Below are positions 15,238-15,553 of a stretch of DNA of 64,000 nt, piece after piece; the stretch's first letter is position 1; every line of letters begins with the position of its first letter. This stretch comes from Anolis carolinensis. Its lineage: Eukaryota. Below the pieces are notes generated by a model. That model made no database searches, had not been told where the DNA came from, and worked only from the letters and a program-made list of their open reading frames with translations. Both the position numbers and the translations under genes were made by a program. The DNA lies in NCBI RefSeq assembly GCF_035594765.1, contig NC_085844.1, positions 196,680,107-196,744,106 of the forward strand, given 5' to 3'.

Positions 15238-15248
15238 ATTCTTGGCTT
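15238..15248 (-). other. Primer-binding site, self-priming type
   Basis: AAGCCAAGAAT starts 2 nt inside the 5' LTR boundary and is perfectly complementary to ATTCTTGGCTT in the LTR (15353-15343); no TGG tRNA-type PBS. Confidence 0.85.
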
Positions 15249-15250
15249 AG

Positions 15251-15553
15251 TGTCAGCTCACCACAGCCGCTCCTGAATGAACACACAAGACTCTCTGTGA
15301 TATCACCAGAAACTTTTACTGTAGGAAACATGAACATCAGAAAAGCCAAGAATGGGATACTACGGCCAACCCTCCTTTATATACCCTCCCCCTCATTTGA
15401 ACAGTCTCTTCCCGCTCAGTAAAACCCCGCGCAAATTCCCCGCCAAGTCCAGCAGCCGTTTCTTCTCCAAGTCCTGAGCCGCAGGTGTCTTATCAATGTC
15501 AGTGACCCTGAAACTCAGAGCCACATCCAGGCTCTAGTAGCAGGGTTCTGACA
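15251..15553 (-). repeat. 5' LTR
   Basis: Direct repeat of 10237-10539; contains TATA box and an AGTAAA poly(A)-like signal (15320-15315). Confidence 0.97.
15376..15383 (-). promoter_or_regulatory. LTR TATA box
   Basis: TATATAAA begins 30 nt upstream of the predicted start at 15353. Confidence 0.75.

What the first reader, a model, noticed from the sequence alone, without database searches (positions are those of the whole stretch)
15238..15383. tRNA-independent self-priming signature (Tf1-type)
Seen: there is no TGG-type PBS. Instead AAGCCAAGAAT (15248-15238) lies 2 nt past U5 and is the exact complement of ATTCTTGGCTT (15353-15343), which begins 30 nt after the start of TATATAAA, where transcription should start. 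Known: fission yeast Tf1 primes with the first 11 nt of its own RNA after RNase H cleavage, and this has been proposed for vertebrate Tf1/sushi elements. This intact copy gives a testable amniote example with the same 11-nt length.
Basis: partly seen in the sequence, partly recalled or inferred. Interest (0 to 1): 0.7.

Follow-up and report, generated by a model that had tools for sequence, protein, structure and literature searches.

The report
Self-priming lizard retrotransposon with spliced gag
A young lizard jumping gene has no tRNA landing site but carries an 11-base stretch that pairs with the predicted start of its own RNA, and six sister families keep such a pairing, mostly with different letters, so it likely starts copying itself with its own RNA end, as yeast Tf1 does and as already proposed for vertebrate relatives.

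Summary
In a young Ty3/Gypsy element (identical 303-nt LTRs, uninterrupted 1,538-codon gag-pol, at least 40 copies identical over this region), the 11 nt at 15248-15238 are the perfect complement of 15353-15343, 30 nt after the TATA box. There is no TGG and no tRNA match. Shuffled LTRs give such a match 16 times in 20,000.

New here: six sister families in the same genome keep a 2-3-nt spacer plus an 11-13-nt self-complement 99-108 nt before the LTR end. Seven distinct primer/PBS pairs vary on both sides at all 11 positions. An ERV control has a TGG site and no self-match.

Tf1-type self-priming is therefore likely (0.8). The start site and the RNase H cut were not observed, and the two flanking 'pretzel' helices do not beat shuffles. 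The mechanism is known and already proposed for vertebrate Tf1/sushi elements, so this is a well-supported new member.

Side results: no chromodomain, mostly 6-bp TSDs, and a gag-end-to-PPT splice (one contig of 8 runs; donor conserved in 7 families). The BEL/Pao 'negative control' also showed self-complementarity, which the scan noted before in other genomes.

The parts
15251..15553 (-). 5' LTR, 303 nt, TGTCA...TGACA
   Evidence: identical to the 3' LTR
15376..15383 (-). TATA box (TATATAAA), 30 nt before the self-primer
   Evidence: sequence; an AT-rich box lies about 30 nt upstream in sister families
15343..15353 (-). Candidate self-primer, predicted first 11 nt of the RNA
   Evidence: perfect complement of the PBS; covaries across families; start site inferred
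15315..15320 (-). Variant poly(A) signal AGTAAA in R
   Evidence: AATAAA or AGTAAA at +31 to +38 in families A, B, G, H, C, F and at +9 in D; function inferred
15259..15271 (-). U5 segment able to pair with the leader at 15232-15221 (candidate third 'pretzel' helix)
   Evidence: duplex -18.7 kcal/mol, but 144 of 500 shuffles reach it: inconclusive
15249..15250 (-). 2-nt spacer between LTR end and PBS
   Evidence: 2 nt in A, C, D, F, G, H and 2-3 nt in B; predicted integrase-trimmed dinucleotide
15238..15248 (-). tRNA-less primer binding site, 11 nt
10586..15202 (-). Single gag-pol ORF, 1,538 aa: capsid, CCHC, PR, RT, RNase H, IN, SH3/GPF; no chromodomain
13784..13789 (-). Splice donor GTAAGT at the end of gag (phase 0, after codon 471)
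   Evidence: joint in one contig of run X6; one GTRAGT at this place in 7 of 7 clade families
10562..10590 (-). Branch-point-like motif, pyrimidine tract and AG acceptor just before the PPT
   Evidence: joint; foreign sequence joined at 10563 in X3 and X6 contigs; context
10545..10558 (-). Polypurine tract, 5 nt before the 3' LTR
10237..10539 (-). 3' LTR
10231..10236 (-). 6-bp target-site duplication (partner at 15554-15559)

Best explanation
This Ty3/Gypsy element has no tRNA-type primer site and carries an 11-nt PBS exactly complementary to an LTR segment 30 nt after its TATA box, so it likely primes reverse transcription with the 5' end of its own RNA, as Tf1 does. Shown: the geometry, its covariation across families and the absence of a tRNA match. 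Inferred steps: transcription starts at about 15353; nt 1-11 fold back onto the PBS across a 94-nt structured loop; the element's RNase H cuts after nt 11; RT extends that 3' OH through the 2-nt spacer, U5 and the rest of R; the shortened strong-stop DNA jumps to the 3' R; integrase trims the two extra bases. Copying of the primer during plus-strand synthesis would regenerate the PBS and so explain why primer and PBS change together.
For: Exact 11-bp match; null 16 of 20,000. Of 30 non-E loci with an LTR pair, 29 have a perfect match of 11 or more; the other has 10 of 11 plus a G-U. In one search, 11 of 15 further loci with a repeat pair are 11/11. Seven distinct primer/PBS pairs show 2-4 pair types at each of the 11 positions, and cross-family pairing is only 2-9 of 11. 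A family D subfamily carries two double-sided changes (L165). An old copy gives an eighth pair at 10 of 11 plus G-U (L178). Position is fixed 99-108 nt before the LTR end, about 30 nt after an AT-rich box, starting with A in 6 of 7 pairs and G in one. Predicted pairing probability is 0.94-0.95; fold z = -2.95, 0 of 200 shuffles. No tRNA 3' match. ERV control: 5 of 5 have TGG and at most 6 nt of self-match. RNase H motifs are intact. The RT-RH tree places it among vertebrate chromodomain-bearing elements next to fungal ones. Tf1 mechanism: PMC7175516 and PMC10085805 (passages).
Against: No 5'-end data. The two flanking 'pretzel' helices that Tf1 needs can be drawn but do not beat shuffles in family A (121 and 144 of 500) or in most sister loci. 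The duplex is 12-13 bp in B, F and H, so the 11-nt length is not universal. Family E gives only 10 nt with no spacer (6 of 623 null windows as good), and its pairing probability falls to 0.0 in a longer fold. In F it falls to 0.49. Four of 15 extra loci failed at the called boundary; one was rescued and three stay unexplained. The tRNA set lacks Trp, Tyr, Glu and several isoacceptors.
Confidence: 0.8

Rival explanations
1. Self-primed, but not with Tf1's exact chemistry: the start lies a few nt away, the primer is 12-13 nt, or a host nuclease frees the 3' end.
For: B, F and H pair 12-13 nt and B has 2-3 nt spacers. The pretzel side helices are not significant.
Against: A, C, D and G stop at exactly 11 bp with a 2-nt spacer. 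RNase H motifs are intact.
Confidence: 0.12
2. The duplex is a regulatory hairpin (hiding the 5' poly(A) signal, packaging or translation control), and priming happens some other way.
For: The poly(A) signal lies inside the enclosed, conserved stem in A, H, B and G.
Against: The 3' arm sits exactly at the PBS position, 2 nt from the LTR end, in all clade families. No other primer site exists.
Confidence: 0.04
3. A tRNA fragment or other host small RNA primes at this site, as half-tRNA primers do in some copia elements.
For: An 8-nt internal match to tRNA-Thr(AGT) positions 9-16 exists for family A. The tRNA set is incomplete.
Against: Eight different PBS sequences each match their own LTR, and no tRNA is shared among the best internal matches, which are 5-8 nt.
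Confidence: 0.03
4. Chance complementarity.
For: 1 of 656 internal windows reaches 11.
Against: Repeated at a fixed position with different letters in six sister families.
Confidence: 0.01

Closest known systems
Tf1/Tf2 of Schizosaccharomyces pombe (self-primed Ty3/Gypsy)
   Same: 11-nt 5'-end/PBS complement and no tRNA site (PMC7175516, passage); single gag-pol ORF (PMC10085805, passage). The TGTCA...TGACA ends equal those given for Tosmo1-3, Tcry1 and Tj1 (PMC10085805, passage).
   Different: Animal host; no chromodomain; mostly 6-bp TSD; pretzel side helices not demonstrated; splice signals and a spliced contig for a gag-only RNA; mechanism untested here.
[quoted passage not shown]
   Same: RT-RH groups with fish, frog and squamate chromodomain-bearing elements. 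Self-priming is proposed for the group (Butler et al. 2001, seen only as cited in PMC6317226, PMC4600332 and PMC10085805). A full-length chromodomain Ty3/Gypsy element is known from this lizard (Piskurek et al., title seen in the reference list of PMC2774666).
   Different: Non-fission-yeast members mostly use a -1 frameshift (PMC10085805, passage); families A, B and G have one ORF and no chromodomain. No named V-clade sequence was available for the tree.
Drosophila copia and plant Ty1/copia (EVD, BARE1) spliced gag RNAs
   Same: A single-ORF element making Gag from a spliced RNA; copia's intron removes the whole pol region (PMC5580714, passages).
   Different: Here it is a Ty3/Gypsy element. 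The acceptor lies 22 nt before the 3' LTR, so the spliced RNA would keep primer, PBS, PPT and R, and the last 13 Gag codons would be read from the PPT and U3.

Membership tests
Ty3/Gypsy LTR retrotransposon | Domain order Gag-PR-RT-RH-IN, TG...CA LTRs, PPT, TSD | tested here: met
   best solved relative is Ty3 Gag-Pol, E 1e-130
Tf1/sushi group (V-clade) | RT-RH phylogeny within the fungi/vertebrate chromovirus cluster | tested here: met
   Quick ML tree, 45 rows: nests in a 34-row vertebrate clade (SH-aLRT 95) beside fungal elements. No named Tf1, sushi-ichi or Amn-ichi row; midpoint root; the careful search did not finish.
Tf1/sushi group (V-clade) | No tRNA PBS; PBS complementary to an LTR segment at the predicted 5' end | tested here: met
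Tf1/sushi group (V-clade) | Self-primer is the actual 5' end of the RNA | not testable with these tools
   All 8 runs laid are contigs, which cannot show a start
Tf1/sushi group (V-clade) | Three-duplex 'pretzel' leader | tested here: inconclusive
   Central duplex strong; an R/U5-end helix appears in the A/H/B/G consensus fold with some double-sided change; side helices not above shuffles in most of 11 loci
Tf1/sushi group (V-clade) | RNase H cleavage between nt 11 and 12 | not testable with these tools
   Only the RNase H catalytic motifs were checked
Chromovirus in the strict sense | Chromodomain at the integrase C-terminus | tested here: not met
   No PF00385 match in A, B or G at E <= 0.05; present in D and E, weak in C; the F and H copies scanned were not informative. 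Filed as a chromodomain-less offshoot of the lineage, not a chromovirus proper.
tRNA-primed LTR elements | PBS starting TGG, complementary to a tRNA 3' end | tested here: not met
   No TGG in the first 30 nt in 8 of 8 families; best 3'-end match 1-2 nt

The most novel reading that the evidence does not exclude
A squamate offshoot of the Tf1/sushi group dropped the chromodomain and the gag-pol frameshift and makes Gag from an RNA spliced from the end of gag to just before the PPT. That short RNA keeps the self-primer, PBS, PPT and R, so it is both the Gag message (its last 13 codons read from PPT/U3) and a self-priming template that can be copied into intron-less mini-elements.
Probability: 0.4. 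Interest if true: 0.6.

Novelty: new member of a known kind. Interest (0 to 1): 0.38.

Why it matters
In the passages read, self-priming is demonstrated for fission-yeast Tf1 and only 'implicated' or predicted for vertebrates. This genome offers full 11-position covariation among young, high-copy amniote families, which is strong comparative support. It also gives exact, cheap predictions on natural material: a capped start at 15353, an 11-nt fragment, and strong-stop DNA ending at 15342. The spliced gag RNA, if general, would be a copia-like solution to the Gag:Pol ratio in a Gypsy lineage.

Tried and rejected
Start site from public runs: no RNA holder is on record, and all 8 runs laid were contigs, with no begin/end signal. 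This is uninformative either way.

tRNA priming: rejected on 61 tRNA sequences (incomplete set). No tRNA gene lies in the window.

Pretzel side helices: not significant.

MAFFT alignment of all seven families mis-registered C, D and F, so covariation was counted by position anchored on the PBS. The LTR segment was found by searching for the complement, so 11/11 is partly by construction; the null rates are.

BEL/Pao as a negative control failed, because these elements also lack TGG and show a 9-14-nt self-match.

The splice joint was not seen in 7 of 8 runs. In the large run X15 it is not among the 15 joints shown of 23, which does not exclude a DNA form.

Rows dropped: 7 of 41 loci before (five without an LTR pair, one without RT, one with a 1.4-kb repeat) and 12 of 27 clade loci (no LTR pair).

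Primary papers were not held: Lin and Levin 1997 and 1998, Butler 2001, Atwood-Moore 2006, Piskurek. No supplements were read. Paper searches for a squamate self-priming report and for spliced gag in vertebrate chromoviruses returned 0; one search listed 12 papers, none on a vertebrate Gypsy by title.

Full report
Observation. The finding lies at the 5' end of a 5,317-nt LTR element on the minus strand (15553-10237). The two 303-nt LTRs are identical, begin TGTCA and end TGACA, and are flanked by a 6-bp duplication. After the LTR come 2 nt and then AAGCCAAGAAT (15248-15238), the exact reverse complement of 15353-15343. TATATAAA starts 30 nt upstream. The first TGG is 55 nt downstream, inside gag. 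A match of 11 or more at any of 7 offsets arose in 16 of 20,000 dinucleotide-shuffled LTRs and in 1 of 656 internal windows.

The element. One stop-free ORF of 1,538 codons (15202-10586) encodes capsid, CCHC knuckle, protease, RT, RNase H, integrase and an SH3/GPF module, with catalytic motifs present and no chromodomain. The best protein hits (96-98%) are labelled Anolis carolinensis, so the host is inferred to be that lizard. All 40 scored of 1,692 candidate places match the 231-nt leader query at 100%. In 28 of 30 fetched loci the script found an identical 303-nt LTR and the same PBS. The family is young. A quick ML tree of RT-RH (45 rows; the careful search did not finish) places it in a squamate clade (support 100) inside a vertebrate clade rich in chromodomain-bearing elements (95), beside fungal elements. 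That fits the Tf1/sushi or V-clade of PMC2774666 and PMC10085805 (passages), but no named reference sequence was in the tree.

Covariation test. Parts of four related proteins were used to find sister families in the genome, and 80 clade or control loci were fetched for this test. Labels A-H are mine. In one search, 34 of 41 loci were analysed. Of the 30 in families A, B, G, H, C, D and F, 29 have a perfect 11-13-nt self-complement beginning 1-3 nt after the LTR; the other has 10 of 11 plus a G-U pair. RT identity to A is 58-84%. The LTR partner begins 99-108 nt before the LTR end, about 30 nt after a TATA or AT-rich box. B and G share one 11-mer; with a D subfamily there are seven distinct pairs. 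Each of the 11 positions shows 2-4 Watson-Crick pair types, and primers pair with other families' PBSs at only 2-9 of 11. The D subfamily differs from D by two double-sided changes (L165), and an old copy with 89%-identical LTRs gives an eighth pair at 10 of 11 plus G-U (L178). In one search, 15 of 27 further clade loci had a repeat pair and 11 of these were 11/11; of the four failures one was L178 (boundary mis-called) and three remain unexplained. Family E, outside the squamate clade, has only a 10-nt match with no spacer (6 of 623 null windows as good) and is not counted as support.

Controls. Five of five ERV loci have a TGG primer site and at most 6 nt of self-match. Against 61 host tRNA sequences of 30 anticodon types, no family's post-LTR sequence matches a 3' end by more than 2 nt, and the best internal match is 8 nt; Trp, Tyr, Glu and some isoacceptors are missing. 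The BEL/Pao control was not negative: among 27 of 28 loci with LTR pairs none shows TGG at the PBS, and 26 have a 9-14-nt self-match at offset 0-1, in three groups with different letters. Null rates there are higher (25 of 1,023 windows at 9 or more; 3 of 986 at 10 or more). The scan had noted BEL/Pao self-priming in other genomes.

Structure. Folding from 15353 gives the primer/PBS duplex at probability 0.94-0.95, with z = -2.95 against 200 shuffles. It encloses a long stem that holds the poly(A) signal. The consensus fold of 10 A/H/B/G leaders has 32 pairs, 9 with double-sided change. Tf1 needs a three-duplex 'pretzel' (PMC10085805, passage). Both side helices can be drawn for A, but neither beats shuffles (121 and 144 of 500), and the U5/leader helix is weak in B, C, F and G. 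This feature is inconclusive.

Mechanism. Shown: geometry, covariation and the lack of a tRNA site. From Tf1 (PMC7175516, passage): nt 1-11 pair with the PBS and RNase H cuts between nt 11 and 12. Inferred here: the start at about 15353, the same cut, extension through the 2-nt spacer, U5 and the remaining R, and integrase trimming of two bases. That primer copying regenerates the PBS follows from general LTR replication (my own knowledge) and from the title of Atwood-Moore 2006, seen only in a reference list. Confidence is 0.8 for Tf1-type chemistry and about 0.9 for self-priming of some form. No 5'-end data could be had: no RNA holder is on record and all runs were contigs.

Side result, spliced gag. 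One contig of run X6 joins 13790 to 10561 across a GT...AG intron of 3,228 nt; the other seven runs did not show it. Contigs in X3 and X6 also join foreign sequence at the same acceptor. The donor is in phase 0 after Gag codon 471, and the joined frame ends 13 codons later, in U3. Each of the seven clade families has exactly one GTRAGT in its internal region, at the end of gag; family E's only one lies in RT. An acceptor pattern near the 3' LTR was found in A, H, C, D and F; for B and G it is visible by eye only. A, B and G are single-ORF and chromodomain-less, with mostly 6-bp TSDs (A 7 of 8, G 3 of 3, B 3 of 5). Most C, D and F copies examined have overlapping gag and pol frames and 5-bp TSDs. 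Splice-made Gag is known from copia elements (PMC5580714, passages). Our searches found no report for a vertebrate Gypsy, but key subscription papers were not held.

Comparison and verdict. Self-priming is described as a common feature of Tf1/sushi elements from fungi to vertebrates (PMC10085805, PMC6317226, PMC4600332; passages only). PMC3601003 and PMC4340606 (passages) added nothing decisive. The scan has no look-alike of this sequence and no note with the vertebrate/splice word set. The element works like Tf1 and belongs by descent to the vertebrate branch, but it fails the chromodomain test. Verdict: real, well supported, expected for its lineage; a new member of a known kind; interest 0.38.

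Noticed in passing
window 13789 and 10562 (minus strand): GT...AG splice from the end of gag to 22 nt before the 3' LTR in one contig of run X6; the donor is conserved in seven families; the spliced RNA would keep all replication signals.
   Followed up: partly
L149-L156, L189-L208 (BEL/Pao loci of the same genome): Three BEL/Pao groups lack TGG and have a 9-14-nt complement of the post-LTR sequence inside their own LTR (335-447 nt before its end), with different letters in each group: candidate self-priming outside Tf1/sushi.
   Followed up: partly
window 15554-15559 and 10231-10236; L055-L067, L088-L091: The chromodomain-less families A, B and G make mostly 6-bp target duplications; C, D, E and F make 5-bp ones.
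   Followed up: partly
window 10540-10544 and sister families: A pyrimidine-containing spacer of 3-5 nt separates the purine run from the 3' LTR in all eight families, implying extra bases at the left cDNA end or an extended plus-strand primer.
   Followed up: no
window 15337 and 15331 (minus strand): Two weak-context ATGs in R are in frame with gag with no stop, so an N-terminally extended Gag could be read through the primer loop; G and H frames do not open that far.
   Followed up: no
L078-L082 (family E): A high-copy chromodomain family with 972-975-nt LTRs and overlapping gag/pol frames; it has only a 10-nt self-match about 650 nt before the LTR end. Possibly the described Amn-ichi (recalled, not tested).
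   Followed up: partly
window 19240-22889 (+): A LINE-type element: a 351-codon ORF without Pfam match, then an endonuclease-RT ORF of 812 codons.
   Followed up: no
loose end at 10236 in runs X1, X3, X6, X11, X12: The same non-window flank is attached to the LTR end in five runs, suggesting one particular other copy or solo LTR is present in most of these libraries.
   Followed up: no
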